Under the pieces are notes generated by a model. The model did not search any database, was not told the origin of the DNA, and worked only from the letters and a program-made list of their open reading frames with translations. DNA of 64,000 bases from Laetmonice hystrix. Its lineage: Eukaryota. A program made the position numbers and the translations under genes. Below are positions 1 through 64,000 of the stretch, piece after piece; the stretch's first letter is position 1, and each line of letters opens with the position of its first letter. The stretch is from contig OZ249436.1 of NCBI GenBank assembly GCA_965235115.1, positions 10,976,001 to 11,040,000 on the forward strand, written 5' to 3'.

Positions 1-576
1 TCGCTATGCTAACCGAAAATCGCGATCAATAGGCCTAAAGCATTGTTCGACATTTTCCGCCGCGCGCTCTCCGGAAGAGATTTGCTTCAGTTGGCGCGTG
101 ACTAGACCCTACACAACATAATCAGTGAAGCGTGACGCTGGGAGACCATGCACACAGACGGAGTACAGGACGTGGGATGACCCCAGTGACGCAGTAAATT
201 ATCATTCGGTGAACCCGACTTCTTGTGAAAAAGGCGTCGTAGTGGACAGACAGATTTCGAGAAAGCTGAGCACACAGAATTCCATTCCTTGATTAATGAG
301 CTGGAGATGATCAACGATGAGAGATTTAAGGGGTCCTTAGCAGACCAGCCAATTAGAGGCCTCTTAGCTTCAGCTTTACTGAAGTTGAGAATTTTTGAAA
401 AACTGGGCCCAGATCTCAGTTCCATGAACTCTTCGATCTGGTCATTGAGGGTATTTCTGCACTTTGATAAATTGTTCACCCATGGTCTTCCACGTGCTTA
501 CTGTTGCGACTCCTCAGGAATGAGGTCAAGCCATCACCTATAGCAACCTCATTGACATTTGTACGGGGTAGTTAGA

Positions 577-844
577 GGTGGGTGGGTATTTGGGGTTTTA
601 CGCCTTGCAACAGCCAGGGTCATATCACGGCGGTGAAGATGAGATGAAAGTCAGTTTTTCTTGGTGGAGGAAACCGGAGTACCCGGAGGAAACCACCGAC
701 CTTCGGGAAGGAACTGACTGACAAACCTTTCACACATGCAGCCCAGGCCGGGAATCGAACCCGGGTCGCAGCGGTGTGAGGCGATGGTCCTAGGTGTCAT
801 GATGGAGCCGACACCTTAGACCACTCGGCCACCCGAGGCCCCCC
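577..844 (-). mobile_element. Full-length tRNA-derived SINE with V-SINE-like central domain
   Basis: The minus strand has an A box (TGGCCGAGTGG) and B box (GGTTCGATTCC), then GGTGGTTTCCTCCGGGTACTCCGGTTTCCTCC (V-domain-like) and a short (CCCA)n tail. It is flanked by an 11-bp TSD GGGTAGTTAGA at 566-576 and 845-855. Confidence 0.85.
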
Positions 845-1292
845 GGGTAGTTAGAACATTGGTTCAAGATTTGATAGCCAAGAAATCTGGGCGATTGAAT
901 CCGATTTTTTCAAACGTTTTTGATGTTGGGGATTTTCCCCACGGTACAAATGCCCTACTTTGCAATGGCAAGGTTTGGAAAAAATCAATATAACCACCGT
1001 AACATTTTGGCTGTTTGGAAAATTCAAAATCTCCATTATCAGAATATTCTGATAAAAATAACCTTTAAATCTATGTATTGGGGCTACTTACAAAACTGAG
1101 TTGAGAAGTTTTTACATACCCGTTTACATAAACGTTATCAAATAACCACGAGGAGAAGCCAGTAACTCAGGGATCTGATACAGAGATGTTGTCGCTATAC
1201 AGAGAAGTTGTCAATGATGTTGTAACCCCCCCCCCCCCCCTCAAGTGCGTGACCTCACAAGTGTTTTTATTTTTGCTCATATTTCTCAACAG

Positions 1293-2115
1293 AGAAGAGG
1301 ATTCTTCGTGGAGTGTGGAGCTCTTGACGGCGAACGTTCATCTAATACTATATACCTTGAGCAGAAGAGAGATTGGTCAGGTCTGCTGATTGAGATGGAT
1401 CCTTCGTGGTACCAGCAAGTACGCGGTAAAAACAGGAAAAGTTTCACCATCAACGCCTGTATCAGCCCTAGCCAATATCCAATCAAGGTATTCTAAATCG
1501 TTCTGTAGCATCTAGAGCTGTGTTTATAACCAACATGGTGGTTATTTACAGGTACTATAATATCACACTCTAAAAACAAACAGTTAGATGGTAAGAAAAC
1601 TATCCGTCTTATTGGTTGAGGTAGTAGGCTATTGGTAGCCTTTCGCCAACAACAAAACTGTAGTCCCAGATATCATATTATTGCAGCTGCTTATATCAAT
1701 TCATACACTCCGTGTCTTCTCTTTGCAGATGGAATTTAAAGAACACACAATGGGTGAAGGAAAATTGGTGATGAGTGGTAATAGTGCAGGATCTATAAAA
1801 GGCAAAAACATCATTCACAAGGTGTACTGCTTCCCATTTTATTCAATGATGCTGGCATTGAATATTACACATATCGACTACTTCAGCCTGGACGTCGAAG
1901 GCTTGGAATTACAAATTCTTAAAACGATTCCTTTTGACAAGCTGGATATTTCTATATTCACAGTGGAATATATCCATGGAAAGGATGGTGCTAAAGCTTA
2001 CACAGAGTTTATGGAATCTAAAGGTTATTATGTACACTCAAAAATTAGACAGTTCAAGCCTGAAATTTATTTCGGGGCCAATGATATAGTTTTCGTTAAA
2101 AGAGGGGCGTACTAA
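1293..2115 (+). CDS. Star-like FkbM family (Methyltransf_21) protein, last two coding exons; 5' part not found in window
   Basis: Exons 1293-1487 (cag|AGA...AAG|gtattc) and 1729-2115 (ttgcag|ATG...TAA) join in phase 0. Motifs GFFVECGALDGERSSNT and IDYFSLDVEGLELQILKTIPFDKLDI are typical of metazoan FkbM/Star-like proteins. Confidence 0.88.
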
Positions 2116-3141
2116 GTTTTGTTCTTACATAAACTGCTCTTTTTCTTGATTTAAAAGAAAGACGGACAGATTGACCAATTGCAAGTTGAAACGCTTCGTT
2201 TCTGGTAAGCTCTCATGATTCTTTTCATTAATAAGGGGGTCCTTTTTTCGCCCTGGACTAAGAGGCGGGTCCCTTTTTTAAGGAGGTTCAGTCATGGTCA
2301 AAGCCTATCCAATAATTCGCATGCACATAGGTATAACGCAGATTCATAATAAAAAATGGCGTATAATTTCGGCTAAAAATTTAACCTTTAACCTTTGACC
2401 CTGATGAACCTTTCATCCTGACTTTACTAAGCGCATGCTTAGTATCCTGATCCAAGACCGACTGATGCGTGTGACAGGTGTGACTGAGCGAGTACCATAT
2501 ATTATTAGGCAAAAAAGTTTCGTTTCTTGTTCCATCTAAGAAGGTATAGGACCCATCCATCATGTTTGAGAACCGCCATACAGATATACTTTGGGTGAAA
2601 GGTTTTTTTTTAATTCATGCGATGGGTTTCATATTGTGATAAGCAATATAATAATGTGGCAGAAAGTTGCAACGGTTCTTTAGGAAGTGGAGTGTTTCCG
2701 GTGGGTTGTCACGTTAATAAAAACATTGAAAATATTTCGTATTAGTTTTGTTTTCGTAAAAGTTTTTATTTATGTACCTAACAGCAATCGGCTATTGTCC
2801 GGCTAAAGAAAAAAGGGAGGAAAATGCCCACCCCCTCCAAACAAAGAAGAAATTGAGGGGGGAGAACCTTGTCACTACGCCATTTTGTTTTATATGAAAG
2901 GAAAAGAAATGAAATATACGTTGCCTTCTACCTATCCATGAACGAAGCGTTTCCGGAATGCAGGTATAGTCTAGTGACATCTTGCCACAGACGATGTAAC
3001 AAACTTGAGTTATCGTGTCTTGCCGCAGGCTTGTCTCACTGTGTCCACCTAAATATGCGTGATGGATACAATAGAGCACTGTAAGCGACTAGAATCACAA
3101 CACGCCCAGAAAGTGGCCTTTTATACAGTCTTGATCATCCC

Positions 3142-3384
3142 GGGCCCGGGGTTTTTGTTTACTTTTCCACCGTGAGCCAGGATGAGCTGAGCTGAGCAAG
3201 GGTGAGCGTGAGCTCATTCTCACCGTTTTCGTGTTTTTGGGGTTGTTTTTTTCCATAAGGCGTGCTGATGGTGAACAAGCTCGCGGAAAAACACCCAAAA
3301 AGACGAGAACTGTGAGCAAAACGGTGAGCATGAGCTTCTGCTCACCCTTGCTCACGTTGGAAAAGTAAACAAAAAAACCGGCCC
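3142..3384. mobile_element. Palindromic MITE (PIF/Harbinger-like termini GGCCC), copy 1
   Basis: Long imperfect TIRs (GGGCCCGG..TTTTTGTTTACTTTTCCA) with internal TGAGC repeats. A homologous copy lies in the opposite orientation at 21394-21658. Confidence 0.75.
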
Positions 3385-4068
3385 CAAACCCTCAGCAGCA
3401 AGAGAGTCGGGTGACGGAGACTGCCTTTTATATTGTATTCAGATCAAATGGGCGGCATGGCGGTCATCCTTGTTTGATTCCCGTAGCAACATTGTTTTGT
3501 CCCTTATCTTGGAAATGGTGCAAGATGCATAGTAGGCCTAGTTCCTGCACATGCAGGAAGACACATGGGAACTTTCATTTAGTGGCATTTTCCGTAGAGT
3601 GACCTATAAATAAAAGACGGTGCATCTTTTCAATGGCTTACATCTTCAAGATTATGCAAGATAAGCACATAATAGATTGAACATGACATTGTGTAAAAAG
3701 TTATATACCGATTTTTGTTTCGCACGAGTTCTTTCTTTTACCCCGATTGTCCACATACTAGTTACAAAATTATCTTATTCATCATAAATAGGAAGTCATA
3801 AGAATTTTCATTCGGCACGGCTTTCTTTTAAAGTCAACTAAGGTCATTTAAGGTCACCGATGTATTTGCAAACTTTTCAAAATAACACCTAGTTAGTATA
3901 ACTGATGGCTGGGAAGTCATTTTAGGTTTCATTTGCCACTGTTGTTCTTTGCATTGAGGACATTAGCCTTCCTTTTGGACGGATTATCTCGAAAATTGTT
4001 CAAGATAGGCCTAACCACTTAACCGGGGCAATTCGTGCGGGCCTTTTTGCGGAATTGATATAACTTTC

Positions 4069-4644
4069 CAGGCCCTTAGCCAGCCTTCTAGGTGTGTGGG
4101 TGTGGGTAGTAGGCTAATGTATGGCAAGTATGGTTGGGCCGGTCGACATGAATTTACTGGGCCATTGGAAATCGGCCGTGCTTAAAAATTATCTAGACCT
4201 ACTTGACCTTTCAGGGGCGTAGGAAGGCCAGAAAAAGTGGGGGGGGGGGGGGCAAATGAGTCCATCACGAGCGCCGAAGGCGCGAAGCGTAGCTAGGGGG
4301 TCCGGCGGCAAAATTTTGAAACTTTAGGTTATCTGGTGCATTTTAGAACACAATATGTTGTTCTGAGTAGGTAGGCTACAAAGTGGTGGTGGGGGCAAAA
4401 TTACTCCGGCCCCCCAGTGTAAAGTGTGTGTGTGTGTGTGGAGGGGGGGGGGGGCTGGGCTACCCCTTTTGCTACGCCCCCACATTCTAAAGACGGGAAA
4501 CAGTAGAGCTATAGGCTAATTTATTTTATTACCAGACAATGTGGAATCCAGTGGCTGATGTAACCTATAGGACCCAAAGGAAAATCTTAGGGAACTAGGG
4601 GGCGTCCGACCCCACGCCCCCCCCCCCCCTCGGCTACCGGCCTG
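4069..4644. mobile_element. hAT-like MITE (CAGG termini) with 5-bp TSD; contains a nested CAGGGGCGTAG-type MITE at about 4212-4482
   Basis: TIR CAGGCCCTTAGCC / GGCTACCGGCCTG, with TSD CTTTC at 4064-4068 and 4645-4649. The nested element has CAGGGGCGTAG...CTACGCCCC ends. Confidence 0.65.
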
Positions 4645-7600
4645 CTTTCAAAGTTGTAAACCTAAGTGTTCCAGAGATGCAGGGCCGTAGCCAGGGGGGG
4701 CAGGGGGCAGCTGCCACTGTTCATACTCCATGTTAACACGAATGCGCAGGCGCAAATAATTTGTGGGTCAACAACTTTAGTTCATGTGCGTTAAAGGGGC
4801 AGGGCGATTTGAAACTCTCAGAATTATCATGGAGAACGATTGTTATAAATATTTAGGCTCTAATGCCAATAACCTCCTACGTATCTCTACTAGGCCTATA
4901 GTAACAGCCAAAAAGGGGGGAAACTGCCGGTTTACACGAAACAGTCTACATATATGTCGCCAGCGATGCTCAGCAATCGCAACATCTCGGGCTTAACCGA
5001 CCGGAAATGACATCGGACGTTCCGACTGGCTCAGGGGGTTACTCTCGTGATCTCGTATAACGTTCTGCTAAGATCGGGACGAGGAAAATCGACATGATTC
5101 TTTAGCAGTGTAGTTCTGATTCTGAAGCTCAGGACACTAATTTTTTTAGGTCCCCCCCCCCCCTTAAGCCCATCAAAATCCTGGATCCCCGCACTGCAGG
5201 ATCATCAGATTGATTTTTATTAGAATGAAAGTGTCCCGCTTTGAGGATCGGTGACGCTCATATTGATTCAATGTAGGATACAATTTGGTTCTTCAGAAGA
5301 CTCATTTTTATTCTTTTCAAGCATTGCCACAGACCCAAAATGATTGCCATTTCGTTTTCAGTGCACTTGAGGACTGGAGGCCCATGTTGTGTAGACAGGC
5401 CTATAAATATACGTCCACGGCTGTCCATATACTTTAGTAGTGCCCCACATTATTTGCAAGCTGACACAAAAACGCTGAATCGATCTACATAATATGTATA
5501 CGCCATACCACAGGGTTGGCTTGTAGGGCCTACTTTTACAATACAACAACATTGCCGAGTAGAGTCAGTTATACAGTAATGAATGGCCGACTGTGCCCAA
5601 CAAGATCGGAATGATAGGAACAATCCCCCTGAACATGTGAGAATCGTGACCCGGCGAACGAGTAGCCTATCATATTAGCATGTCTGGCCAGATCTGACAT
5701 GCCTATTCAAATCTGCATGCTGATTGAGTTAACAGACAGTTTTCATTGCTGTAGCAAAATGTAAACAGGGCACGAATAGGAATACCTAAATAGATCTAAT
5801 CGACATGCATGCAGCTAAAAGGTAGAAATGTCTTTTTTCAAGGTTCTTTATCCGATGGAAAAGGAATGTACTTCAGAGAAATGTACTTTTCAATTTTTGT
5901 TACAATGTTTTCTTTGAAGGACCTAGTGAAGTGGTAGGGGCCTACCAGTTCAGGCCAAGTTTAAAGTGCAGGTTCATTGCAGTATCGGCCATACAAAAAA
6001 GTATTAGGTCCGAGGTTATAGACCAAGCTTGAGGTCCAAGGCTGTGCGTTGAGAATAGCTATATAGGCCTACAAATGCCAGGTCTTGAAAGGATGCACCA
6101 TTTTCATGTAAATTAGGAAGTAATTGAAATATGGTAACCATGACAATAGAATACCGTAATGTACTTTAGTAAGAGAGGCTAGTTTCTGTGATTTGAGTGA
6201 TCTCGTAAAATCTTATAGACTATGTCTCATTGATTCAAACGTGAGTAATTTTACCAAAATATTGTGTAGCCTATATAATATTGTATAGGACTATCATATC
6301 GTAGCCTCTATGTTTTTCTTGAAAAGGATAGGAGTAAGTCTAGACCTATTTCCTTTGGCAAAAATCTGTAGTCATGTGATGTAATCTATGCACATATCAC
6401 GAATACGGCGATGGACGATTAAACTGTAATTATTAAATATTTGTAAACAGATCTAGTTCTTGTTCGTGTCATTTGGAGGAGACAAAAGATCAATGTCAGT
6501 AATAGAACCCTAAATTTGTTATAAGCAAGTTTTATTTTATTAGGCCTATAATATTAGACCTATGCCTATTTGGCCTATAGTTCCGTAGCTTCGACATAGG
6601 CCTAGATTTCAAAAACACAACCACGGCCTCATCAATAGTTATTTTCGTCAGTATAAATACTGTGACAATTCTAGGTTTATGTGTGTGTATATTTAATGTA
6701 AGTTAGTGCCTTTTATTCTAAACATTGTGGTCAGTATTTTAGCCTTGGTGACCGTAGGAGTGCCCCCTCCCACCCGCAGTGTCCAGACTGTGCTGGAGAT
6801 CTCCTGTTGGCCACCCTTTGTAGTGCCGGGGCATTGGTCACCATCCTCATTGGTTGAAGCCCCCCACCCCCACCTTAAGACGGGCTGCAGGGCTCAGAAT
6901 CGGGGAGAGTGACCGACCCTCTCCAACTGGGATGGCAGCCAACACCACCACGCCCCGTTCGGCCCACCTCGGGACTGTCCGGGCCAGATCCTCTCGGCCC
7001 TCGCACAGTCGTCACCATGTTGGATCTTCTTTTATCACGTGACACAACGTGGTCAAAACGGCGACGGCCGACAAACCGACAAAGGTGAAAGACAAGCAGT
7101 GTCTGGCTTGTTTAAAAACAGATCTCCGCTTGATAGGCCGTATCTCCGTTGCAATCTAACGCTCTGCCTTCGAACCGCTTGGCCATTTTCGATAACCGTG
7201 TACTAACAGGAGAATTCTCACGCTGAGTTTCAGTGCTGTGCGGCTCTCACAGCGGTCTACCTCAATCCCTTTTGTGTGACAATTTTTCATAGATCTATAT
7301 GTGGGGCCTGATACCATATTTTTCATTTTTTTGCCATTTTTGATAGGACTTCATTAAAAATCTAATCCAACTCGAAACTTGTAATATATTTTCCTAAAAG
7401 AACTCCCTATAGACTATCCATGTGCCAAATTTAAAATAAAAATATTGAAAACTGACTTTTCTAGAACACTTTAAACTTTCAGAAATATGGATTGGTACAT
7501 ACATGTATATTTTTAGGCCTATTAACTGGCATTGTAGTGCATACATGTATGTATATTATACGGTATTCAGATCATACGCCTGCTATTAGGCCGGGTGTCA

Positions 7601-7659
7601 ATAATGTCAATAAAATATCTTTAAAACAGACTCAAACAAACCCCGTCTATCTGCCGTGA

Positions 7660-8172
7660 ATTCTTAGACGTCTAGCTAACGCCTGGGGATAAACGTCAGA
7701 TAGACGTCGATTCTGGGACGTCCCGGCAACGTCTGACTTTTGACGTCTTAGACGTCCAGCCGACGTCTGTTGATTAACGTCAGATAGACGTCGATTCTAG
7801 GACGTCCTAGCAACGTCTGAGTATTGACGTCTATCTGACGTCGATTCTTATATGTCCTGTCAACGTCTGCGGATTGACGTCAGATAGCTGTCAGTTCTTA
7901 GACGTCCTAGTAACGTTTGGGTATTGACGTCTATTTGACGTCAATTCACAGGTCTACGTCCAGCCGACGTCTGGGGATTGATGCCAGATAGACATCGTTT
8001 CTTAGACGGCCTGGCAACGTCTCAGTATTGACGTCTATCTGACCTCAATTCCTAGACGTCCTGTCAACGTCTCAGTATTGACGTCAGACAGACGTTGCAA
8101 AGTGGTTGTCGACGTCGCAACTAAGATTCACCCAAAATATGACGTTGATTCGACGTCATGTGCCCACTGGGT
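7660..8172. repeat. GACGTC-rich degenerate tandem array ending in a transposon-like terminus
   Basis: Degenerate units of about 50 bp dense in GACGTC/AACGTC, ending ...GACGTCATGTGCCCACTGGG. It resembles subterminal repeats of CCCAG-terminated (EnSpm/CMC-like) non-autonomous elements. Only one end is seen. Confidence 0.6.
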
Positions 8173-8993
8173 CAGTTCTCCCAACGCTGTAGCCAACTAG
8201 CCTACACGATAGTTAATCTCCATTAGAACGGCCTGATTTTATTAGTGATTAAATCTTCCTGACAGTTTGTCCCACTTCTCCTATATCTCTATATCTGGAA
8301 AAAACTAGCAAGTCCACTTTGCCTCATTTTGAGAAAACTGGGACAAACAAACCGTTTCTCCCATTGGGGTGCTGCAAACACTAGTGTTTTCCAGGTCAAG
8401 GACTATGAATTGCGTAGATTGAGTTCTGATCACTTAATTGTATGAAAGGACAAAACCTACTAAGTCCAAAAATGAGACTAGCTCAAATTGGACAAAAACT
8501 CGACTTACTCGGTTTTTCAAGATCACTGTAGAGCTGTCCCACATCACCTCCAGTGCTGTCCCATATCTCCCAGCAGGTGTCCAATGGCTCCGTATCTAAT
8601 TAGGCCTAATAATTCATCGGTAATTAAAACAAAACGGCAGACGATCAACATTTAAAATATCTTTTAATGATATACCAAGGCCCTAAGGTAGGCCTACCTG
8701 TTGCATGTGAAAACAATAATTGGCTAACATCATCCTGAAACAAGTGAACCTTACAAATGTGACAAGCGCAAATTAATGTCCCAGTTCTCCTGGCTCTCCC
8801 CTTTTTAGATACGTAGACTCTAAGCATGCAAAGCACGTAATTAATGGTTACGCAATGGCCACAGGGTGCGGCCACCGTACCTCCGCGAGTTCACGAGTGG
8901 TGTTCACGAGTCGTGACATCGTTTGGGGGAAATTTACGATACGAGATGTCATTCACGTCTCGTGAGCTGATTACCGAACGCAACGGAATAATA

Positions 8994-9331
8994 TTAGGGA
9001 CCATCTCAAAATTCATTGATGCCAAAAAAGACAAAATTTTTTAGTCTCCCCCACCTCAAAAAGACTAAAAAGCTAAGACATTTTGGCATCATCGTTTATT
9101 TGGTCTAGAACAAAAGTTGTAAGCTATGGAGTAAGGTTAGTCTGTTGGAGAAACCGGCCATTACAGAGGCCAAGTTGGGTTGTTTTTTCACAGTCCCATT
9201 GATTAGCCCTTTTTAATAATAATATAATAAAAGACGAAATGGTAATATAAATGTCACCCCCCCCCCCCCTAGGGGCTAGACGAGATAATTTCGTATTTTT
9301 GGGCATCAATGAATTTTGAGATGATCCCTAA
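8994..9331. mobile_element. MITE upstream of RIOK2
   Basis: Imperfect TIR of about 55 bp, TTAGGGACCATCTCAAAATTCATTGATGCC / GGCATCAATGAATTTTGAGATGATCCCTAA, in a TA/TWA context. Confidence 0.75.
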
Positions 9332-9719
9332 TTACCAGAGAGTACCTCTAGACTAGAGCATTCTCCTACCGCAGCGCCATCTCAGCACTTGGCAGGTTGG
9401 TTAGGGACCATGGAAGAAACCTGTGGTTGCCATGGCAATTTTTAACTACTCATTATTGCTTCGGCTGAGGGCAGAATGAGGGGATCTGCGGTAATTTTTT
9501 TTGTAGTCCGGCCGCGGTGCCCGGCTCTGACACGCTCGCTCTGCCCCTAGCGAGAGGACCGGGAACCAGCCTAAGCTGCTGCATTGCTGCTATATTTCAC
9601 CATTTTCTGGATTGACATCTTGCGTGCGGGAAAGAGTGATTTCCGGTATGATGGAGGAATGAGCCACGAGGCACATGTGTCAGCCTTCAAATAAATCAGA
9701 GACCTGAAACGAAAAGAAG

Positions 9720-15499
<5,780 letters not shown>

Positions 15500-16185
15500 G
15501 GGTAAATAATCACCAAACGTGAGGAGTGTTTTTGATGAATGGAAAGTGGTCTTTATGCCTAAAGTCATATTAAATGAACACACATAATCAATGGCATTGC
15601 ATTGCAACATTTTGCCAGGTTTGGACCATAGAATATAGACTTACTGCTTCTCTGTACGTCTATCAATTAAGACTGATTCATGCAGACATATTTCTTACTC
15701 GGAAACGTTGATCGTTGATAAGGTCAGTGTTATGGTCAGTGTAACTACACATTTCTGTCCATGTCTGGTAAGTGACTGAATAGAAAATACTTTTCCCTGT
15801 TGAAATTGGTTACCGGTATGATCGCTATGGACTATAAAGGCCGTCCCCGTGACGGTGTGTTGGTTAGCTCGGTGCCGTCCCGCCCATTGCTGGCCTGAGC
15901 CAGTGGAGCAGGGTCAGCTGAGGTCAACGTTACCGGGTAGCTAAAGATCTATGTGCTATTTATAGACAGCAGTTCCTCTTGAATTCAACAGCATGGGGAA
16001 GTCATAGTTACGAAATATGCCACTAGGTGGCTGCAAGCATGGTTTCACGGACGGGACCCTGGGAACTTGCATTTTTAACATGTACCCAAAAACAGCTGCA
16101 GATGTAAAGTTTTTTGATATACTATTTTTAGATGATTAGCAGATCCGACGGAGATATGTTGGTAGAGACTTGTGAAATGTTTACC

Positions 16186-16191: not shown

Positions 16192-17135
16192 CAATTTTCC
16201 AATCTGTAGTCTTGTATTTCATTATCATGCTTTGCTCAAATTTGTGTGTCGGGGAGGGGGCTATAATTACCTGTCAGCGCCCGCTTAGGTGAGGGTCAGG
16301 GCTGGGTGAGGGTTGTGGATGTTTGAGTGTACTGTAAACTTTAGGCCTAAATATATAGTGAAAAATACAACCTAGCTAGCAAGCAGAAAAAAGTTAGACT
16401 GGGGTTGGCACCCACATAACCCCCCCCCCCCCCCCCCGGGCGATATCCGGTCCTGCCTGTTCTGTCTTTTGATTTTGAACCGTATGCGAAGACAGCGTGT
16501 TTTTCAGGGTTTGTGGGTCGTGACGTGAACAGATCTAAGAATGTCCATAATGCTAAAGCCATACGGACTTGAAGTACCGGTAGGTCTACTGTAACCAAGA
16601 ATGGTGGAGTGTAATTCTTGCTGTAGCCACCAGATGGCAACAATGGAAATCGACTTTGGCGCCCTCTGTGATTGATAAAGTGCTCAAACGGGCACCTGCT
16701 GTCACATGATAGACGTCGGTCATGTGACCGGTCTTGTTGCCGAGACTGTACGAGATCGTGGTGTGGTATATATCTTTACGCACCGTAAAATAGAACATTG
16801 TTCTTATATTTACACAGGAATACCTCAGTGAATGTCCTGTCATAATATAACGAGACCTTCCAACTCTTTCTTCGGCCTACGCGCCATTACAACGTGAAGT
16901 TGAGGCATATCTACAAGAGTTGGGATCGGCGAATAACGCGGATGAAGACCAGCCGACCCTGTGTGATAGAGGGCCATTTCAGTTATTGCTCTCCGTGGGT
17001 AAAGTGAACGGACGGAAATGACCGTCTGGACTGCGGGAATGGATCGAACTCGCCACGTTGAGTATTAGGGGGCCATAGAGTGTAAATTTTATATTCTGGC
17101 CAAAGAGTTATGATATTTAAGCAGATATATCCCTA

Positions 17136-40774: not shown

Positions 40775-41350
40775 TTAGTCCACCAATTTAACGGTCGTAT
40801 CGCCCGATAAACTGTTCGGTGTTCAAAATGTTAGCGAGGATTCTAGCACAATCCATTCTGTGAGCGGTTTTTCTTTTAAGCAAAGTTTTTATAAAACTGT
40901 CGGATTTGATTCAAAATTGTCAAAATATAGATTCTAAATATCAGTAGGCCTGCTTGGAATTCACAAATGGTGTGATTTGGGTCCATCTTTACACTATTAA
41001 TAGGCCTAGGCCTAGTTGATCTCTTTATTACATTAACCTGTTCAGGTATTTCCACGTCTTTGTTCAGTGTGTTTGATCAATGAGATGCGACTTGTTTAGC
41101 GCACCCTGTCCCCACTCCAGCCATGTGCGGCAGTGTCGGGATTGAAATCGGTGTAGGCCTATATTTTCAGACGATGCCCCCAGTCCGATATTACAGGAGT
41201 TGTACGTACCGGCCTGATTTGACCCAACAGCAGAAAGTGGTGTTCGAACATTTAAGAACAGATATGTTTGTTCAGAGGTGGTAATGGATAAGAACTGTCC
41301 AGTATTTATCTGTACTCGACGCGTCTATAGGAGACCAAGAAATAAGAATT

Positions 41351-41420
41351 CCGGTAGGTCTCCCCGGATACCCGGTAGGTCTCCCCGGAAACCCGGTAGG
41401 TCTCCCCGGAAACCCGGTAG
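41351..41420. repeat. Short tandem repeat, about 3 x 21 bp
   Basis: Unit CCGGTAGGTCTCCCCGGA(A/T)AC. Confidence 0.8.
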
Positions 41421-45530: not shown

Positions 45531-46937
45531 AAAAAAGAAAAAGTGAATTTGGTCTTAGTCGACTAGATTCGTTCATCCTACCGTTCGAAGATCTGGCGTC
45601 TGAGACAACACGTGATAACCCAATGATAGCCGCCATACAGAACCGTGCCACAGATCGACCCACTGACGGGGAACGGGTTGTATTGCTACATCCCTTTAGA
45701 AGAGTCATGTCGCACTTTTCTCAGGCTTGCACCCTCCCGCCTCCAAGTGGACACTAAGTGACTCATCATACTGTCAGTGTTTGAACCATCAGCACGTGTT
45801 GCCAGACTACGACCGAACGTGGACCCATGCAAGCTCCTTCCGACCCATCAGCCAGTTCATGGGAGACAGACCCGAGTCTATCTAAGCGATACTTTCAGAC
45901 GTGACCGTTCACTGCACATTTGACCAGTGGTTTCCTGGCTTTATATAGTGGGGAGGTCAAGCTGGACCTCCAGAGTGGTGTCCCACACAACCACATTGTT
46001 TTCCTGAGATAAAAACATTTTACAGGCAACAACCAAAGCCCTGGAGGTGTAGATCTCGTCTGTAGCACTAAAAATATGGGGACCATCCATAGTTTCTTCC
46101 TGCAAGTTGATTTCATTAAAACATATTAATAAAAATGATAAAATCAGGGCACCATGGACAATGAGGCACGTGACACCGACGTTCTGCATACGACAGTCGT
46201 CACCCAGCGTCAAGGTCAACATAGTTACAGTCATTTGTATACAAATTAGGATGTCACCTCCAAAACCAATTGCCTACATGGCTGTATTTTAGTGTGTTCT
46301 TTACCACAAAGCAATATAAGTGAACACCGACTTAAAGATCAGAAGGTTTTACAGGTAGAACATATTTCACATTAATCAAGACACCATTTCCACCGTCCTG
46401 TCTGTCCAAATGAAAACAAGGTGTACAACCAAGCATGTCTGGCGGTGTCATACTGTCTACAGGCAAAATTGTTGACTGTAACTGACTGACGTACAGAGTC
46501 GCCGGCGTGAGGTGTGACAAACAAACCTGGACAATAGAAACCACTACCTGGTATTTATAGCACAAGACTTTATTAGGGGAGGGCGTATACTGGCATAGCT
46601 TTCACCTACTCTATTTACCACACAGATCTTGCTTACTTGATTATTGTTTGTTCATGAAGGAGTAAAAGTTTTAATATCAACTAATGCAATATGTGCCCCC
46701 TGACTTCATGGATCTGTTACCCGTAAGCCATCTCATTTCTGCCACGCTGTCTTTTTTGGCCTTGTCAAGTTTAACAAAACCGGTCAAAAAATTATGACTA
46801 AAGTGATGTCCTTAAGAACGACAAAAGTGGGCGACGTTGTGACAAAAGTGGTGACCTGTGACAAAAGTGGGCATTTTGTGTGACAAAAGTGGTGACCTGT
46901 GACAAAAGTGGTAAAAATGACAAAAGTGGTTGTTACA
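44809..46937. mobile_element. 2.1-kb Ginger-like (TGT...ACA) non-autonomous element with long structured TIRs
   Basis: Imperfect TIR of about 150 bp starting TGTA(G/A)CAACCACTTTTGTCATTTTTACCAC, built of CCACTTTTGTC sub-repeats. There is no matching TSD and host sequence next to it is deleted. Confidence 0.8.
45328..45527. repeat. (GA)n microsatellite
   Basis: About 200 bp of interrupted GA dinucleotide repeat inside the TIR element. Confidence 0.95.
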
Positions 46938-49900
46938 AATGTACGTGACGGAAATGTTTTACAGTTATACATCTGGCCAAAAATGATAATTTTGGGTGCG
47001 TAATTTAAATTTGACGTATCAAAAATGAAGCATTTTTTCGCTTATCATTGCACAATCCTATCTCTCCGCTTGGCGCCACAGGTGACCGCCAGCCCGGCCA
47101 GGTATACGTGGTGATTCGTAGCCGGAAGGTGGCAGTGCAGTCGGAGGCGCCGCTTCAGTACGGAACGGTGGCATTTCCCTGCAACATCTCTGTAATTTTT
47201 TTTTTTATTTGGGGAGGGGATATCTGAAGGCGTGCAACGATTTCATTTGCCATATACGTCGGTACCGTAATGGACCCCCCCCCCCCCTTTCCTCAAGATC
47301 AATTAAAAGATTGAAATATGAAGGGGATAATGTCAAGAATCCGAGAGACAGAGATAATAACGGGTGCATAGGACTAAACCAAAAGATTACGTAAGCTTGT
47401 TAGTTACCTTCCATATTTCCTGCCGACCTTCTTTTCAAACACCTCCGCCAAATATGGTATTATTTAAATTCAAACTGGCAGTCTTAATCACCATTTTGGG
47501 CAAAATTTTGAAATCTGTGGATTGTATTAGAAACACGTTTGGCTATGGTCGAGGTGGCATCAGGCGCAACCCATAGCGGTATAAATATGTGGTAACGTTT
47601 TCTGTAATAAGATAGAGGGAGAAGAAAATAATGTCAAATCAAGGAATATTAGAAGATATATCAGCATGGTAGCAGATAGAAGATTACACCATTGACTGCT
47701 GTTTTCGTGATGGGTTTATTTGGTACGAGAGCACATGTATGTACAGCGTAAGTCAGGGCCTAGTACCTTGTACCAGCACTGACAGCCAGTTACTACGTTC
47801 ACCACAACCCTTTCACACATTATTGATGGTCCAACCTGCTACAAACTGTTGTTGCATAGTGTTTATCTACGACTTGCACAACACTATGCCCCTCCATATT
47901 CTAGGTTAATCACCGAGAGTTGTTCTGATATTTTTATCATCGTTTTGTCGTCCTTTTACGAATAGTTTAAGAACCCTTTAGCTGACAGATTACCCAAAAT
48001 GTCATACTTAGAAAACGTTAATGTACAATTTCTGTAATCTCTGCCCTTTTTCCAAACTGCCCGACGCCTCGAGCGACCACATATCCCGTAAAACCATTTG
48101 GACACAGCAACCAACAGCGCAGTAAGACTTCAAGCCCCTTCGGACATATTTGGTTATTTGCTTTACTTCAGTAGATATAAAATCACATTGACCTCCATAG
48201 ATACAAGTCGTTTTAATTATTTGTTCCGGTTTCACGAGTACCGAGTCTAGGTAAGCTGTGAAAAAATATTTACAAAGCAACACACATTTATAAGTTAAGA
48301 CTCCAGTTTATAAAAAAAACCTAGACACGAACATAGATAAAAGCCGAGAAGGTTTCCGAAGTCTACACTAAGCTAATATGTATCTACAGATTGCCTCTCA
48401 CTGACTGTACAGGGTTAGATAAGAAAGATGTGTCCATATCCATACAAAACCAACACACACGCTGCTGACTGTAAAACTAAACACGCACTCATTCATGGCG
48501 TTTGGAATAAAAATATACTTTACCTTGTCAGTGTCAATCAAGTATTCACATAATAAACTTACTGATTTGTCGCAATTCCACACCGATTTTTTTTTCACCG
48601 ATACCTTTTTCTTCAAAAAGTCGCAAGGCCGATCGACTGAGACCATTTCCCTTTAACGTTTTTTCCGTCCGATTACCATCCATATAAAATTCAACTTCAC
48701 TCTACAATTTCTCGCTGATTGGAAAGACAGGAAACCTCACAGAATACGGTCCCAGCCAACCAGAGCGTTTCCTATTACCAGGGGGCCCCATTCAGGCCAG
48801 TCCCTTTCTAAGTCTACTGGGATGGCACAGACGTCTCTGATTGCTGTCTGACATAGAGACACGCGTTGAACTGGTCTCGAGCGAGAAGTTAACCATGGCG
48901 GTGGAAACATGGTGGTTGTGTGAGCTACATGCTGTCAAACATGCACGTGTCCACACATACAATCACGTTCCACGGCTCTATAAAACGGCATGGTCCATGT
49001 TCTATGCAGTGAACCGCCAAGCCACAACTTATTACGCTTCTTTTATTCGAAATGCATCTGTAAAATATTACTGGCTTATCTTCTCCATTGTATCCAACTG
49101 GGTTTGGAGATACTGATTACAAAGACATCTGTATATGATATACAACAATATGCTGTTTTCACATCTTACATGTCTCGACAGATACTGTATTAATGCAGGT
49201 AACAGCTGGAATATTACAGGACGTTACAGTACAGTATTTTCTGAATTCAAACTTGAGCAACGCCAGACTAGTATTTTCAAAATGCCATAAAAACCCAATA
49301 TTGTCATGAGAATGAATTGTTCTCCCCCACCCCAGTAAAATGGCCGGCAGGATTGGCTACGGTAAATAAATTTACCTCCGTTCGTTTCAGAAGAAGTTAC
49401 TTTCATGCAGAAAAATACACCCTACCAGTCATCCACTTTTACTTTCATCATTTGGACAGTGACACCGCTTCAATAAGAAAGGCACATGACAACCAAGACA
49501 AAGCACCATGAAAGAATAAGACATGCGACCATGTGACTCTCTAATACGGGAGCCACCTACACACTCCCCAACTCTCTACACACACGTACGATATGCTAGA
49601 CACGGAACCTGACATAATATACCAACAAAAAAATAACATAATACCGGTACATGTAATTAGTGTCCCTGAATGTAGCAAACGACCATAAAATCCTGTCAGT
49701 AGTAAATAAATAGTCTGCAGTGCAAAATACTTGGCAGCCTCACATAGCAATAACACGGAAGCTAAGTTAACCTAATAAAAGATCACCTGGCGCAAATAAT
49801 CAAAGCCGTTAGGAAAATCCTAAGCAAACACGTTACTTGATGCCCACTTGGGCGTCCAACTGACTCCGTCCCTGGGTCGAGGGGGATTTATAACTCATTA

Positions 49901-58200: not shown

Positions 58201-60620
58201 CACTGTGGATCCTTCCAATACAGAGCATCTGCCGTCAGACTGCATGAAGTTAAAACAAACACAGGAAGTTTAGCTTCACGCTCCCTCCTATTTTAGGTCA
58301 ACATGTCCATTCAGACATTTCCCCATGATTTATGTTCTTGTCACGTTTCCACGGAATTCTGTGAAACACTGGGGTCATTTCGACAGGCTGTTTGTTAGTG
58401 TAGGACAGGAAACCATCTGCTTTTCATTTACTTCTAAATACCATTCTGACTTTGCCGTCAGGGTTGGAGGTCAGACTGTATACAAGACGGCCAGTACTTC
58501 AGACTGGCCGCCCCCACCACCAGCTCTAGGCACTGTTGGACCGACATCCTTGGACCACCTCTGGGGCGGTTCAACTTGGAAACTCTCACCATTAGGTCAA
58601 CCGGATCATTGTGAGCAGACAACACATTGATCATCGTAGAACTAGGCCTACTGAAACGGACAGATACACAGTACATGTACTTCCGTCAGCAATCCCCTAA
58701 CACAGTATTACATCTGTCTACATAATATACAACACATTGATAATCGTAGAACTAGGCCTACTGAAACGGACAGATACACAGTACTTCCGTCAGCAATCCC
58801 CTAACACGGTATTACATCTGTCTACATTATATAACATATTGATCATCGTAGAACTAGGCCTGCTGAAACGGACAGATACTTCCGTCAGCAATCCCCTAAC
58901 ACGGTATTACATCTGTCTACATTATATAACATATTGATCATCGTAGAACTAGGCCTGCTGAAACGGACAGATACTTCCGTCAGCAATCCCCTAACAGGGT
59001 ATTACATCTGTCTACATTATATAACATATTGATCATCGTAGAACTAGGCCTGCTGAAACGGACAGATACTTCCGTCAGCAATCCCCTAACAGGGTATTAC
59101 ATCTGTCTACATTATATAACATATTGATCATCGTAGAACTAGGCCTGCTGAAACGGACAGATACTTCCGTCAGCAATCCCCTAACAGGGTATTACATCTG
59201 TCTACATTATATAACATATTGATCATCGTAGAACTAGGCCTACTGAAACGGACAGATACTTCCGTCAGCAATCCCCTAACACGGTATTACATATGTCTAC
59301 ATTATATAACATATTGATCATCGTAGAACTAGGCCTGCTGAAACGGACAGATACTTCCGTCAGCAATCCCCTAATACGGTATTACATATGTCTACATTAT
59401 ATAACATATTGATCATCGTAGAACTAGGCCTGCTGAAACGGACAGATACTTCCGTCAGCAATTCGATTCCAGAGTATTACATCTGTCTACATAATATTAC
59501 ATTATTATATATATTGGGGGGGGGGGGGGGGCTTTCCGTTCATAATAAATAAGTGCCATGGCAGGAAATAAAAGCCAGATTAATTGCCTTAGACCCACAG
59601 CGTCCATATTCAGGTGGACGAAGCCATGATGAACTTATCACGCCTAGTTCTGTGATCAGTCTGGTTTTATTTGATTTGAATCACCCCACCCTTACCCCCG
59701 GAGCGCACCCAACTGTGGGTCTACCAATGTGGATCCCGATATAGAGCCCTTTGCCGGTCAGCGGGGTCAGCCAATTTGTCCCCAGGGATTTGAATGCTCA
59801 AGTTCAGTCAGATAGGTGGTTCTTTCATGTCAGACGGCCTAGCTCTGTGGGTGACCGCGTACCCACGCCTCCACAACATACATGATGTCCGGGTCCCCCC
59901 GGGGCAGGTGAAGGGGCTGCGGGGGTGGAGGGCCAAGGGCGTGGCCAGGGCGGCCCCAGGATAACTTGTACAACATGTAGGCTGTCAGCCTGGGCCAGAC
60001 CTAGGTGTTTCTGATAGATGGGGTATTCCATGGAGCCCCAGTGAACCCATTCCTACCGCTCGTGAACCCAATCTGGTTTAATCAAACTGACGCAGAGACA
60101 GAAAATCCAACATCCAAATATAATGAATGTATCAACAAATCTGGATTATACCTCTACCCATGTGTAGGACGAATGGCATCATACGCAAGGACATGATGTC
60201 CTAGCGTAAAAAAGATTAAAGTGATGCCACTTTACTAATGTTAGGTAAACGATGACTTTGTGATTTCTTTGCCTTCATTTGGTTCTTAATCAACAGAGAT
60301 AGACATTTAATATTCATATATATTTAGAAATCCACTGAATGAAACGATTTCGTTTTTTAACCTTCACGCCTCAGAATGGCGGCATCGTGAGTGTTCACAT
60401 GCCAGAAACCCTTTAGTATCCAAATTGAAAGTGGACCTTGACGATGATACGGCCGTGTCTTACCTTGGATCCCTCGACACTGATAATACGGTACGAGTTG
60501 CGGGTACTGTCGTAGTAATACGACACGTTGATCGCTTGAGTACTGGCCGGCAGCCATTTCTTCTTGGTGTTGGGGTCTATTTGGAAGACGTGCGCTTTGG
60601 TCGTAAAAATGGGTTGCTCC
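52286..60620 (-). CDS. HOMER: Homer scaffold protein (EVH1 + coiled coil), 8 conserved coding exons; start exon not among them
   Basis: Minus-strand exons 60464-60620, 57519-57650, 56852-57007, 53590-53720, 53318-53474, 53023-53133, 52764-52844, 52286-52483 are all GT-AG and phase-consistent. They read [22 protein letters not shown]...[24 protein letters not shown] (EVH1) and [52 protein letters not shown] (coiled coil). Confidence 0.96.
53763..54098. repeat. Minisatellite, about 16 x 21 bp, about 40 bp from a Homer acceptor
   Basis: Unit ATCCACGTCATGGATTATCTA. Confidence 0.95.
54927..54959 (-). CDS. Candidate internal alternative first (or cassette) coding exon of Homer, [11 protein letters not shown]
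   Basis: ACCATG start context, 11 codons and a strong phase-0 donor AAG|GTAACC that matches the phase-0 acceptor at 53720. It lies in a CpG-rich island. Confidence 0.4.
55080..55230 (-). promoter_or_regulatory. Candidate internal Homer promoter (CpG-rich, CRE half-sites, E-box, TATA-like)
   Basis: The minus strand has TATATAA (plus 55212-55218), two TGACGT, TGACGC and CACGTG clustered upstream of the candidate exon. Confidence 0.3.
57199..57276. mobile_element. 78-bp palindromic Ginger-like mini-element
   Basis: CCGG|TGTGGCG...ATAGTAGTCC/GGACTACTAT...CGCTACA|CCTG. Confidence 0.55.
58621..59495. repeat. Minisatellite, 9 units of 95 bp (first two longer) in a Homer intron
   Basis: GATCATCGTAGAACTAGGCC recurs at 58629, 58739, 58841, 58936, 59031, 59126, 59221, 59316 and 59411. 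Confidence 0.95.
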
Positions 60621-62208: not shown

Positions 62209-62960
62209 CAGTGCACTCCCTGGCGCGTGACGGTGATACACGTGTAGCCACGGCCGTCGTCAGCCGGCGCCATGATCATAGCGTCCCGGCCTTTCTTCAA
62301 CTCACACGGCAGACTCTGCCTCCACGCCTGCCCTGCCCCCTGGTGGTGGCTGAGGCTGGCCGACCGCTGGCGGTGGTGGTGGTGGTGGTGATGGTAGCGG
62401 CGGTGGTCAGCGGCGGGTGGAGGATCAGCCCTGGTGACGTCGTAAGCTGACTGCGTGCTGTGCCAAGGCGGGGACAGGGACTCGCCAAGCACGGCCGACT
62501 GGGGACGGGCCCCCAGTCGCGGCAGGCTCCGCGACTTCTGCCGTCTCACGTCCAAAATGTCCCCAACCTCGGCCGAGACCGAGCAGGAGGAGGAGTAGGA
62601 TGGCGGGGCTGGGTGTCGGGTCCTGGGGTGAGGCCTGAGGACGGGGCCGGGGAGCAGGGTGCCTGAGGCCGACCGAGGGAGGTGGACAGAGGGTTGGGGA
62701 TCAAACTGTAAAGTTGTCACATAGCCCGTCCTAGGCAGAGTGCTGGCCCTGGCCTCCTGGGCAGGTAAGGGCCGGCCGCCGTGAACAGAGCTAGAGGGTC
62801 TGGCCCATGGGATGGGGTTGTTCTGACGACTGCTCGGTCGAAAGGTGCTCAGTACGACCGGTGGAGGTCTCTCATCGATGTTCACACTCTGACTCCGCGG
62901 CCGGTGCAGTCTCCGTACCGTTATGGCAACTGTCTCAGCATCCTGACTCAATCCCTTCAT
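62209..62960 (-). CDS. Candidate long N-terminal coding exon of Homer (about 250 aa, disordered, His tract)
   Basis: The 251-codon GC-rich ORF ends CAC TG|GTAACG. This phase-2 donor matches the Homer EVH1 exon acceptor at 60620, giving ...GVHW-EQPIF... and a 624-aa product. Confidence 0.6.
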
Positions 62961-62971
62961 GTGGCCGGTTC

Positions 62972-63139
62972 CTGGTCACAAATATCATACACCTGGTCAC
63001 ATGTATCATACACCTGGTCACAGGTATCATACACCTGGTCACAGGTATCATACACCTGGTCACGGGTATCACACACCTGGTCACGGGTATCATACACCTG
63101 GTCACAGGTATCATACACCTGGTCACAGGTATCATACAC
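62972..63139 (-). repeat. Minisatellite, 8 x 21 bp, each unit GT...CAG on the minus strand
   Basis: Unit GTGTATGATACCTGTGACCAG, exactly 168 bp. Confidence 0.95.
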
Positions 63140-64000
63140 CTGGTCCAGGACGCATCGTCTCAACCTCCTCTGATCCTCTCTACACGAAACCGAAATAAAA
63201 CATTCCCCAAACTTGAGAACAAGATAATGCAATTTAATCCTCCAAGGAGCGCATGAAGGTAACTCCTGGTCAAGGTATATCGAGAAAACCGTAATCCAAT
63301 ATTGTTCAAGAGGTTCAGCGATCAGAAGGCGATGTCGGATTGCTTGCTGCCCAGAGTGTGGCCAGCAACAGTACTGGCCGGTATGGTTTAGTGGCAGCCC
63401 AGTGCACGCGTTCAACTGATGAGCCACACTGACAGGGGTAGCACACGTGACTCTAACTCGCCTCTATTTATCACAGGTATCCACACAACAAGCAGCCAGG
63501 TACTGGCTTGCCCGTCTACCAACAGGTATCTGTGTCTACTGCAGCAAGTTGCAAGCAGCTATAGGCCTAGCTGCCCATTCCGAGGGCTGCGGTCTAAGTT
63601 ACGGCCGACCATCTACTGCAGGTATAAAGAATGTCTGGCCTCAAACTTCATCACGGCTACCCTCCCGCCGTACCAGGCCGTGGTAGGTAGATCTAACCCC
63701 ACCGTGTTTCAGCAACTGAATGCGTTCTAACACCCGAGCTCACCCCAACCCATACACACGCCTTATCTAGACGTTTAACACACCCACAGCGGTCCCATTC
63801 ACAGTCCATTATGACTTGGTAGCGATCTCTGTGTCAAAATGAGAAACCTCACGCAGCTCAATCCATTCGGGCAGTATTAAGTATTTTTTGAAATGTTAAA
63901 CGAACGAGCGGTTAAGTGGCCACACTTGGAGCGGTGCCGCCATGCTGGAGGAAGGTAAACTCGGCCTCACGGGAGATCCTCTTAACTGAGGAGTACTTCC

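What the first reader, a model, noticed from the sequence alone, without database searches (positions are those of the whole stretch)
30..63569. Window-wide excess of TA-NNNN-TA palindromes, possibly a fossil record of transposon excision
Seen: by eye I count about 19 TAGGCCTA outside the 95-bp array (e.g. 30, 3533, 4006, 4891, 6064, 6541, 6597, 7514, 8601, 8689, 16342, 21933, 41001, 41154, 41522, 42087, 61276, 63562), 10 TACATGTA (7500, 7542, 13697, 21153, 25611, 26958, 42795, 49648, 58672, 60964) and 6 TACCGGTA (15811, 16575, 34588, 38227, 49642, 50812). About 1-2 of each are expected by chance. The matching 7-mers TAGGCTA/TAGCCTA, TACAGTA/TACTGTA and TACCGTA/TACGGTA are also common. Established: Tc1 excision leaves TACATGTA and Sleeping Beauty leaves TACAGTA/TACTGTA. 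Inference: several TA-targeting families with different termini (CA.., GG.., CC..) have left dense footprints and act as a pervasive 5-6 bp insertion mutator in non-coding DNA.
Basis: partly seen in the sequence, partly recalled or inferred. Interest (0 to 1): 0.7.

Follow-up and report, generated by a model that had tools for sequence, protein, structure and literature searches.

The report
Six-base palindromic insertions at TA
Three eight-letter palindromes, above all TAGGCCTA, occur 4 to 24 times more often than chance in this stretch of animal DNA, and in three duplicated segments words of this shape differ from the sister copy by six extra letters at a plain TA, so they are likely scars left where cut-and-paste jumping genes landed and left again, although no donor element was identified here.

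Summary
The 8-mer counts are right and far above chance: outside tandem arrays TAGGCCTA 20 vs 0.8 expected, TACCGGTA 6 vs 0.75, TACATGTA 9 vs 2.1; they rank 1-3 of 256 palindromic 8-mers. Of the 7-mers only TAGGCTA/TAGCCTA is raised (12 vs 4.4); TACAGTA/TACTGTA and TACCGTA/TACGGTA are at chance. Between duplicated segments of the window, 3 of 4 usable 6-base gaps are TA versus TA-NNNN-TA (TAACGTTA 43094, TAGGCTTA 43286, TACATGTA 58672; P about 0.003). No exact TAGGCCTA/TA pair was seen. None of 8 TAGGCCTA sites bridged by contigs of the one available individual was polymorphic (low power). No transposase was found in 404 ORFs, and no donor was identified. TAGGCCTA looks young, has unbiased flanks and prefers CpG-rich intergenic DNA. 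Best reading (0.72): fixed excision footprints of several TA-targeting ITm transposon families, probably with GGC ends for the commonest word. The mechanism is known; I found no paper reporting such a dense record. This scan noted the same words in many other windows of this genome; those notes, including a claimed pogo donor, are unchecked here.

The parts
30..8696 (.). Cluster of 10 TAGGCCTA (30, 3533, 4006, 4891, 6064, 6541, 6597, 7514, 8601, 8689) and 2 TACATGTA (7500, 7542) in mostly intergenic, CpG-rich DNA upstream of RIOK2
   Evidence: 8 of the 9 TAGGCCTA in 3340-12400 bridged by contigs without a gap
41001..42094 (.). Second TAGGCCTA cluster (41001, 41007, 41154, 41522, 42087); 41001-41014 is a tandem TA-GGCC-TA-GGCC-TA sharing one TA
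16342..16349 (.). Isolated TAGGCCTA (others at 21933, 61276, 63562; array copies at 58643, 58753, 59235)
49642..49655 (.). Mixed chain TA-CCGG-TA-CATG-TA: two different words sharing one TA
15811..15818 (.). TACCGGTA (others at 16575, 34588, 38227, 49642, 50812); its CpG-transition neighbour TACTGGTA/TACCAGTA occurs 10 times vs 2.2 expected
13697..13704 (.). TACATGTA (others at 7500, 7542, 21153, 25611, 26958, 42795, 49648, 58672, 60964)
43094..43101 (.). TAACGTTA: +6 at a TA relative to both sister copies of an ~800-bp triplication and to the 18-bp sub-repeat; best-polarised insertion in the window
43286..43293 (.). TAGGCTTA (one base from TAGGCCTA): +6 relative to the one sister copy (43652 unit); direction not polarised
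58665..58679 (.). TA-CACAG-TA-CATG-TA in unit 1 of the 95-bp array; unit 2 (58775-58783) has TA-CACAG-TA; the other 7 units have a plain TA. +7 and +6 at one TA; direction ambiguous because these are edge units
7290..7297 (.). TAGATCTA inside a high-copy repeat; part of the family elsewhere in the genome lacks 8 bases at this place
   Evidence: table 4 (7289 left out 8, depth 3630 of 13703 in X1); table 7
8995..9330 (.). Non-coding inverted-repeat element TA|GGG...CCC|TA (first 26 bases of the arms differ at 1 position): the only convincing TA-flanked GG-ended element in the window; not shown to be a donor
23329..23336 (.). TATGCCTA versus TA at junctions of the 160-bp array; not counted as support, because the flank after the last unit already reads TATGCCT

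Best explanation
The enriched palindromes are likely fixed excision footprints of several TA-targeting cut-and-paste transposon families (IS630-Tc1-mariner-pogo group), each family leaving its own word. Shown here: the enrichment of three words; +6 differences at a single TA between duplicated copies for three words of this shape; unbiased flanks; clustering. Established knowledge: these elements duplicate TA on insertion, are cut a few bases inside their ends on one strand, and end-joining leaves 2-4 terminal bases between the two TAs (PMC6943129, PMC9976928; TACATGTA for Tc1 as quoted in PMC3520976). Inferred: GG.., CC.., CA.. and AC..-ended families give TAGGCCTA, TACCGGTA, TACATGTA and TAACGTTA. 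The GG family probably ends in GGC, because TAGGCTA/TAGCCTA is raised while TAGGGTA, TAGGATA and TAGGTTA are not. Two GGC-3' overhangs could pair through their terminal GC and be filled in (+6, TAGGCCTA) or pair over three bases with a mismatch (+5). The GGCC scars are young and went preferentially into, or survive best in, CpG-rich intergenic DNA; the CCGG scars decay by CpG deamination. The donor transposase is not in this window.
For: Enrichment 24x, 8x, 4x; top 3 of 256 palindromes. Paralog gaps: 4 of 5 distinct 6-base gaps in the window's self-alignments are TA-N4-TA versus TA, or 3 of 4 after dropping the junction case at 23329. A random 6-base gap has this form with probability 0.019, or 0.096 given any 2-base direct repeat, so P = 3e-5 or 0.003 for 3 of 4. 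Adding the one 6-base gap listed among genome-wide paralogs (10257, +CTTCGA, not TA type) gives 3 of 5, P = 6e-5 or 0.008. Bases next to TAGGCCTA are A10 T11 G10 C9. Two chains share a TA vs 0.31 expected. One-mismatch neighbours: TACCGGTA 33 vs 15.9, led by the CpG transition TACTGGTA 10 vs 2.2. Third-base test: TAGGCTA 12 vs 4.4; TAGGGTA 3 vs 4.8; TAGGATA 4 vs 6.0; TAGGTTA 9 vs 6.9; TAGGGCCTA 2 vs 0.3. In 110 of 122 metagenome loci picked for the tandem word (match masked; no similarity to the window), TAGGCCTA is 109 vs 6.2 and TAGGCTA/TAGCCTA 91 vs 28.1. In one repeat family there, the same TA carries extra +2, +7 and +28 inserts.
Against: No exact TAGGCCTA-versus-TA or TACCGGTA-versus-TA pair was found; the GG-type pair is TAGGCTTA and is not polarised. 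The 58672 case could be two losses between short direct repeats, and 43094 could be a 6-base slippage plus two substitutions. 0 of 7 allelic indels and 0 of 8 bridged TAGGCCTA sites show the change. No Pfam transposase in 404 ORFs of 52 aa or more; no GGC-, CC-, CA- or AC-ended complete element in the window. The canonical Sleeping-Beauty 7-mer is not enriched, and TACCGTA/TACGGTA, the +5 partner expected for CCG ends, is not either. TAGGCCTA has almost no decayed neighbours (24 vs 19.6) and prefers CpG-rich DNA, which a selected binding site would also show. In the C. elegans germ line Tc1 breaks heal mostly without error or into a varied spectrum (26 products in 103 animals, PMC4490562), so one dominant word needs a different repair setting.
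Confidence: 0.72

Rival explanations
1. TAGGCCTA (and TACATGTA) are protein-binding sites kept or gained by selection in regulatory DNA.
For: Palindromic; clustered (P 0.004); local CpG o/e 0.77 vs 0.66 at random TAs, with 18 copies in 34.5 kb of CpG-rich DNA vs 2 in 23 kb of CpG-poor gene-body DNA; few one-mismatch variants. TACATGTA is a shown binding site of PsMyb37 in Phytophthora (PMC11134190) and the preferred Irx site as quoted in PMC3520976.
Against: Does not explain why three unrelated cores share the TA..TA frame, why words of this shape differ by exactly +6 at a TA between copies, or the mixed chain TACCGGTACATGTA. TACATGTA and TACCGGTA show no CpG-rich bias. The CpG link is only P about 0.05 when counted by bins. 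Later use of scars as binding sites is not excluded.
Confidence: 0.1
2. A host process without transposons makes or removes these words: template-switch or hairpin fill-in at breaks in TA, or loss between TA direct repeats, so that the 'insertions' are really deletions of a chance word.
For: The 23329 case is best read as a junction or loss; the polarity of 58672 and 43286 is open; no donor found.
Against: Deletions would deplete the words, not enrich them 4-24 times. A general process should not pick 3-4 of 16 cores, and the inserted cores are not copies of adjacent sequence. 43094 is absent from both sister copies and breaks an 18-bp period.
Confidence: 0.1
3. The words are carried inside dispersed repeats and multiplied with them.
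For: 3 of 22 TAGGCCTA lie in one tandem array; TAGATCTA 7290 lies in a high-copy repeat; one metagenome repeat family carries the tandem word in 6 loci.
Against: Flanks are unbiased and share no longer consensus; several sites (3533, 4891, 6064, 6541, 6597) lie on long contigs of single-copy depth, about 60.
Confidence: 0.05
4. Telomerase adds GG to both TA-ended sides of a break (template TTAGGG, recalled as the common animal repeat), and joining gives TA-GG-CC-TA.
For: TAGG is part of TTAGGG; one metagenome locus (L080) is a TTAGGC array containing the word.
Against: Predicts T before and A after the word: A follows in 10 of 40 symmetrised flanks vs 0.28 background; TAGGGCCCTA is absent. It cannot give CCGG, CATG or ACGT cores.
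Confidence: 0.02

Closest known systems
Tc1 excision footprint taCATGta of C. elegans (as quoted in PMC3520976, passages; two-base 3' overhangs in PMC4490562, passages)
   Same: Identical word TACATGTA; +6 at a TA, as seen at 58672.
   Different: Called a rare footprint in the worm, where germ-line repair gives a varied spectrum; here one 8-mer per core dominates, and the commonest core (GGCC) matches no element that I could name from the papers read.
Sleeping Beauty canonical footprint TACAGTA/TACTGTA (PMC6943129, passages)
   Same: TA-terminal bases-TA structure; the 3-base version has a counterpart here in TAGGCTA/TAGCCTA.
   Different: TACAGTA/TACTGTA itself is not enriched here (14 vs 11.4); the +6 palindrome outnumbers the +5 form.
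pogo superfamily, Passer footprints of 0-4 bases with mostly TA target duplication (PMC9976928, PMC7386202, passages)
   Same: TA target and footprint size fit; earlier notes of this scan name a GG-tipped pogo family in this genome.
   Different: No pogo transposase or terminus was found in this window; the passages read give no GG(C) terminus; the link is untested here.
Sailor DD82E elements (PMC8533490, passages)
   Same: Terminal dinucleotides GT or CC would give TAGTCTA-like and TACCGGTA-like words.
   Different: Their target duplication is mostly TATA; TACCGGTA here is not flanked by extra TA.
TACATGTA promoter motif of Phytophthora (motif-1, AM-20; PMC3520976, PMC11134190)
   Same: Same abundant palindrome in non-coding DNA.
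   Different: Interpreted there as a transcription-factor site with shown binding; insertion origin was not tested in the passages read.

Membership tests
ITm (Tc1/mariner/pogo) excision footprint | Structure TA + 2-4 transposon-end bases + TA | tested here: met
   Three TA-N4-TA palindromes rank 1-3 of 256; TAGGCTA/TAGCCTA raised.
ITm (Tc1/mariner/pogo) excision footprint | Homologous empty site is a single TA | tested here: inconclusive
   Met for TAACGTTA, TAGGCTTA and TACATGTA in paralogs; no pair for exact TAGGCCTA or TACCGGTA; polarity firm only for 43094.
ITm (Tc1/mariner/pogo) excision footprint | A TA-flanked element whose termini match the core exists in the genome | tested here: inconclusive
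   Only the window could be searched (no genome held): one GGG-ended non-coding element at 8995-9330, none with GGC, CC, CA or AC ends.
ITm (Tc1/mariner/pogo) excision footprint | Cognate DDE/D transposase | tested here: inconclusive
   0 of 404 ORFs of 52 aa or more hit a transposase family; a donor need not lie in the window.
ITm (Tc1/mariner/pogo) excision footprint | Full, scar and empty alleles segregate at one site | tested here: inconclusive
   0 of 8 bridged TAGGCCTA sites and 0 of 7 indels in one individual with about 0.4% SNP heterozygosity.
Sleeping-Beauty-type (CAG-ended) footprint | Excess of TACAGTA/TACTGTA | tested here: not met
   14 vs 11.4 expected.
Sailor DD82E footprint | TATA target duplication around the core | tested here: not met
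   Bases next to TACCGGTA: T4 A3 G1 C4.
Transcription-factor binding site | Protein binding and orthologous conservation | not testable with these tools
   No chromatin data or sister-species genome available.
Telomerase-added junction | TTAGG/CCTAA flank bias | tested here: not met
   A after the word in 10 of 40 flanks vs 0.28 background.

The most novel reading that the evidence does not exclude
The short-word spectrum of this and other invertebrate genomes is a readable fossil record of cut-and-paste transposition. Each enriched TA-framed word gives a family's terminal bases, its decay halo gives its age (GGCC young, about 3% and at most about 9% divergence; CCGG eroded at CpG), and the ratio of 8-mer to 7-mer reports the germ-line repair route (pairing of the terminal GC of 3-base overhangs). 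The scars of a GGC-ended family land in CpG-rich regulatory DNA at about one per 2 kb, which would make excision a major source of small insertions and of new palindromic protein-binding sites.
Probability: 0.3. Interest if true: 0.7.

Novelty: new variant of a known kind. Interest (0 to 1): 0.45.

Why it matters
If right, some of the most over-represented 'motifs' in invertebrate non-coding DNA are by-products of transposon exit, not regulatory signals, which matters for motif discovery in such genomes (TACATGTA has been read as a binding site in oomycetes). It would also make a normally invisible quantity measurable from sequence alone: how often elements left a site, which families did so, and how the germ line repaired the break. 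The footprint chemistry itself is textbook; the density and the GG(C) family are the new part.

Tried and rejected
No whole genome is held, so no genome-wide count or donor search was run. Allelic test: four runs, all one sample and one study, possibly the assembled individual. (1-14600, 85% likeness) was swamped by repeats and showed 12 of 161 indel rows. One search (3340-12400, 97%) listed 7 indels (+TATC 5056, +TA 6308, -1, -1, +ACTT 11732, +T, +C), none at or creating a target word. A 6-base gap in one X3 contig (3347-4261) was not listed by place; I infer it lies in the repeat end near 3347-3390, because a gap at 3533 or 4006 should have passed the 45% share filter. Gaps of about -8, -7, +4 and +3 in 12400-14600 (table 8) were not located. 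TATGCCTA at 23329 was dropped as support; the gap at 43218 duplicates AAT, not TA. The 8995-9330 element is not claimed as donor: an AT duplication fits equally, a Harbinger-type TWA duplication (recalled) fits with one change, and its third base is G. Coding versus non-coding: 0 of 38 8-mers fall in about 4.4 kb of approximate coding intervals, but P = 0.18, so this is uninformative. The apparent TAAGCCTA excess in metagenome loci was mostly one array (140 of 179 in L080); 12 of 122 loci were dropped before recounting (that array, one overlap, seven redundant homologues, three presumed non-animal). A RIOK2 homologue search and cluster look-up gave no close named relative, so the animal group is not established here. 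A sequence look-up of the 8995 element among earlier notes gave only an unrelated hit. Ten literature searches listed no paper on TAGGCCTA as a footprint or on genome-wide footprint words; the library lacks most subscription journals.
Full report
Setting. The window is animal DNA of about 44% GC with spliced genes: an FkbM methyltransferase (about 1200-2115, +), RIOK2 (about 11765-15499, +), a ubiquitin hydrolase (Pfam hits at 34188 and 36702, +) and a WH1-domain gene on the minus strand (hits at 57501 and 60416; Homer-like by my recall). No whole genome is held for this window, so all tests rest on the window, on public contigs of one individual and on metagenome loci. The animal group was not established.

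Observation. The coordinates are right. With tandem arrays masked, TAGGCCTA occurs 20 times against 0.84 expected (order-3 Markov, P 6e-21), TACATGTA 9 against 2.07 and TACCGGTA 6 against 0.75. They are the top three of 256 palindromic 8-mers. Against an order-5 model trained on the window the figures are 20/5.9, 9/2.9 and 6/2.9. Twenty of 33 AGGCCT hexamers are framed as TAGGCCTA, and the bases beyond the word are A10 T11 G10 C9, so the signal stops at eight bases. Among 32 TA-NNN-TA words only TAGGCTA/TAGCCTA (12 vs 4.4) and TAGACTA/TAGTCTA (14 vs 5.7) are raised, each at P 0.002 before correction. The Sleeping-Beauty word (14 vs 11.4) and TACCGTA/TACGGTA (6 vs 4.4) are not.

Are they insertions at TA? 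I listed all gaps of 3-12 bases in the window's self-alignments and aligned the duplicated segments. Five distinct 6-base gaps appear. At 43094, TAACGTTA stands where both sister copies and the underlying 18-bp sub-repeat have TA; this is a well-polarised gain, although a slippage with two further substitutions cannot be excluded. At 43286, TAGGCTTA, one base from TAGGCCTA, stands against a 6-base shorter sister copy; direction is unknown. At 58672, unit 1 of the 95-bp array reads TA-CACAG-TA-CATG-TA, unit 2 TA-CACAG-TA and the other seven TA; these are edge units, so two losses are also possible. At 23329, TATGCCTA versus TA is best read as a junction, since the flank after the last unit already reads TATGCCT; I do not count it. 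At 43218 the duplicated bases are AAT. That gives 3 of 4 (4 of 5 with 23329). A random 6-base gap has the TA-N4-TA form with probability 0.019, or 0.096 if any 2-base direct repeat is assumed, so P is 3e-5 or 0.003. One further 6-base gap among genome-wide paralogs (10257) is not of TA type, giving 3 of 5 (P 6e-5 or 0.008). No footprint-type 5-base gap was seen, and no pair was found for exact TAGGCCTA or TACCGGTA. Part of a high-copy repeat family lacks 8 bases at the TAGATCTA at 7290.

Alleles. Four runs hold the stretch, all from one sample. In 3340-12400 seven indels were listed; none removes or creates a target word, and one adds TA at a TA (6308). Eight of nine TAGGCCTA and both TACATGTA there are bridged by at least one contig without a gap. 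SNP heterozygosity in the four longest unique blocks is 17 in 4,606 bases, and contigs keep only one allele per site, so few polymorphic scars are expected under any model. The test neither supports nor refutes the footprint reading, but it gives no sign of ongoing mass insertion.

Age, placement, chains. One-mismatch neighbours of TAGGCCTA are barely raised (24 vs 19.6), which implies about 3% and at most about 9% divergence if neutral; selection would look the same. TACCGGTA has a halo (33 vs 15.9) led by the CpG transition TACTGGTA (10 vs 2.2). TAGGCCTA is clustered (P 0.004). It has 18 copies in 34.5 kb of CpG-rich DNA and 2 in 23 kb of CpG-poor DNA spanning RIOK2 and the hydrolase gene; by bins the link is only P about 0.05, and the other two words do not show it. 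Two words share a TA twice (41001/41007 and 49642/49648) against 0.31 expected (P 0.04), as repeated use of one site would give. None of 38 8-mers lies in about 4.4 kb of approximate coding intervals, which is not significant (P 0.18).

Donor. None of 404 ORFs of 52 aa or more matched a transposase family. A scan for TA-flanked inverted repeats found one convincing GG-ended element, 8995-9330 (TA|GGG...CCC|TA), and none with GGC, CC, CA or AC ends. It is not claimed as donor. The third-base test points to GGC ends: TAGGCTA is raised, while TAGGGTA (3 vs 4.8), TAGGATA (4 vs 6.0) and TAGGTTA (9 vs 6.9) are not. My inference is that two GGC-3' overhangs can pair through their terminal GC and be filled in to give TAGGCCTA, or pair over three bases with one mismatch to give TAGGCTA/TAGCCTA. 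A two-base overhang, as in Tc1, would give the 8-mer as well. The matching +5 word for CCG ends is not raised, which weakens a single general rule.

Other DNA. A scan of one 64th of the metagenome collection for the tandem word returned 122 loci (about 17,000 stretches estimated in all), none similar to the window. After dropping 12 loci and masking the match, 110 loci (180 kb) hold TAGGCCTA 109 times against 6.2 and TAGGCTA/TAGCCTA 91 against 28.1. These loci were selected for the word, so the size of the excess is biased, and that they are animal host DNA is my inference. Their flanks favour C and T, unlike the window's. In one repeat family the same TA carries +2, +7 and +28 variants; no +6 GGCCTA pair could appear there, given how the loci were picked.

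Known systems. Tc1/mariner end-joining leaves the first or last 2-4 bases of the element between two TAs, TACAGTA/TACTGTA for Sleeping Beauty (PMC6943129, passages). Passer of the pogo group leaves 0-4 bases (PMC9976928, passages). Most pogo families duplicate TA (PMC7386202, passages; PMC7325037, passages). TACATGTA is quoted as a rare Tc1 footprint and as an Irx site, and was read as a binding motif in Phytophthora (PMC3520976, passages), where PsMyb37 binds it (PMC11134190, abstract and passages). Against a stereotyped scar, Tc1 breaks in the worm germ line heal into a varied spectrum (PMC4490562, passages). Sailor elements start with GT or CC but mostly duplicate TATA (PMC8533490, passages). 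One review prints the Sleeping Beauty footprint differently, as TAG(T/A)CTA (PMC2874221, passages). I opened no supplements; terminal-repeat tables there may bear on the donor. Ten searches (listings only unless named above) showed no paper on TAGGCCTA as a footprint or on genome-wide footprint words.

Earlier notes of this scan. Many notes on other windows of the same genome reach the same reading, give about 150,000-170,000 copies, and several name a low-copy GG-tipped pogo family as donor. They are unchecked AI notes; I could not test the genome-wide count or the donor, and do not count them as evidence. They gave me three papers to read and the pogo lead.

Verdict. The feature is real. It most likely works like ITm excision footprints (0.72), with a binding-site origin (0.10), a host repair or deletion process (0.10), repeat carriage (0.05) and telomerase addition (0.02) as rivals. 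Membership is not fully shown, because no donor and no exact TAGGCCTA/TA pair were seen here. The chemistry is known; the density and the GG(C) family would be a new variant. Interest 0.45.

Noticed in passing
window 17873-18303: Inverted-repeat element CACAGATT...AATCTGTG flanked by a 7-base direct repeat GCTAGGA (P-element-like by recall); it sits right after the TAGGCTA at 17863, whose last bases are part of the duplication.
   Followed up: no
window 44809-46937: 2.1-kb element with 155-base, 90% complementary arms (TGT...ACA) and sub-terminal repeats, lying between parts of the 800-bp triplication; no Pfam hit inside.
   Followed up: no
window 3138-3393 and 21385-21663: Two copies of a ~260-bp inverted-repeat element, high-copy in the genome by contig depth.
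   Followed up: no
window 9893-10828 and 40591-40775: Two further inverted-repeat elements (67- and 49-base arms) with TAA/TTA-like edges.
   Followed up: no
window 14704-14954: Four perfect copies of a 63-base unit in frame in the last coding exon of RIOK2, giving a 21-residue repeat in the C-terminal tail.
   Followed up: no
window-wide: Very large excess of G/C homopolymer runs (CCCCCCCC/GGGGGGGG 154 vs 12.9 expected).
   Followed up: no
window-wide: TAGACTA/TAGTCTA is raised in the window (14 vs 5.7) and in the metagenome loci (31 vs 15.8); it could be the scar of a further family with GAC/GTC ends.
   Followed up: partly
window 3469-6067: Run X4, which skips a RIOK2 intron and so looks like RNA, has contigs at 3469-3662, 4847-5132, 5167-5559 and 5785-6067, covering three TAGGCCTA; no Pfam hit there, possibly a non-coding or untranslated transcript.
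   Followed up: no
L080:270-700: A degenerate (TTAGGC)n array with interspersed TTAGC and TAGGCCTA units, telomere-like.
   Followed up: no
L038:1981-2752: A TA-flanked element with CACCG ends (18-base arms, 2 mismatches), the kind of CA-ended element that would leave TACATGTA.
   Followed up: no
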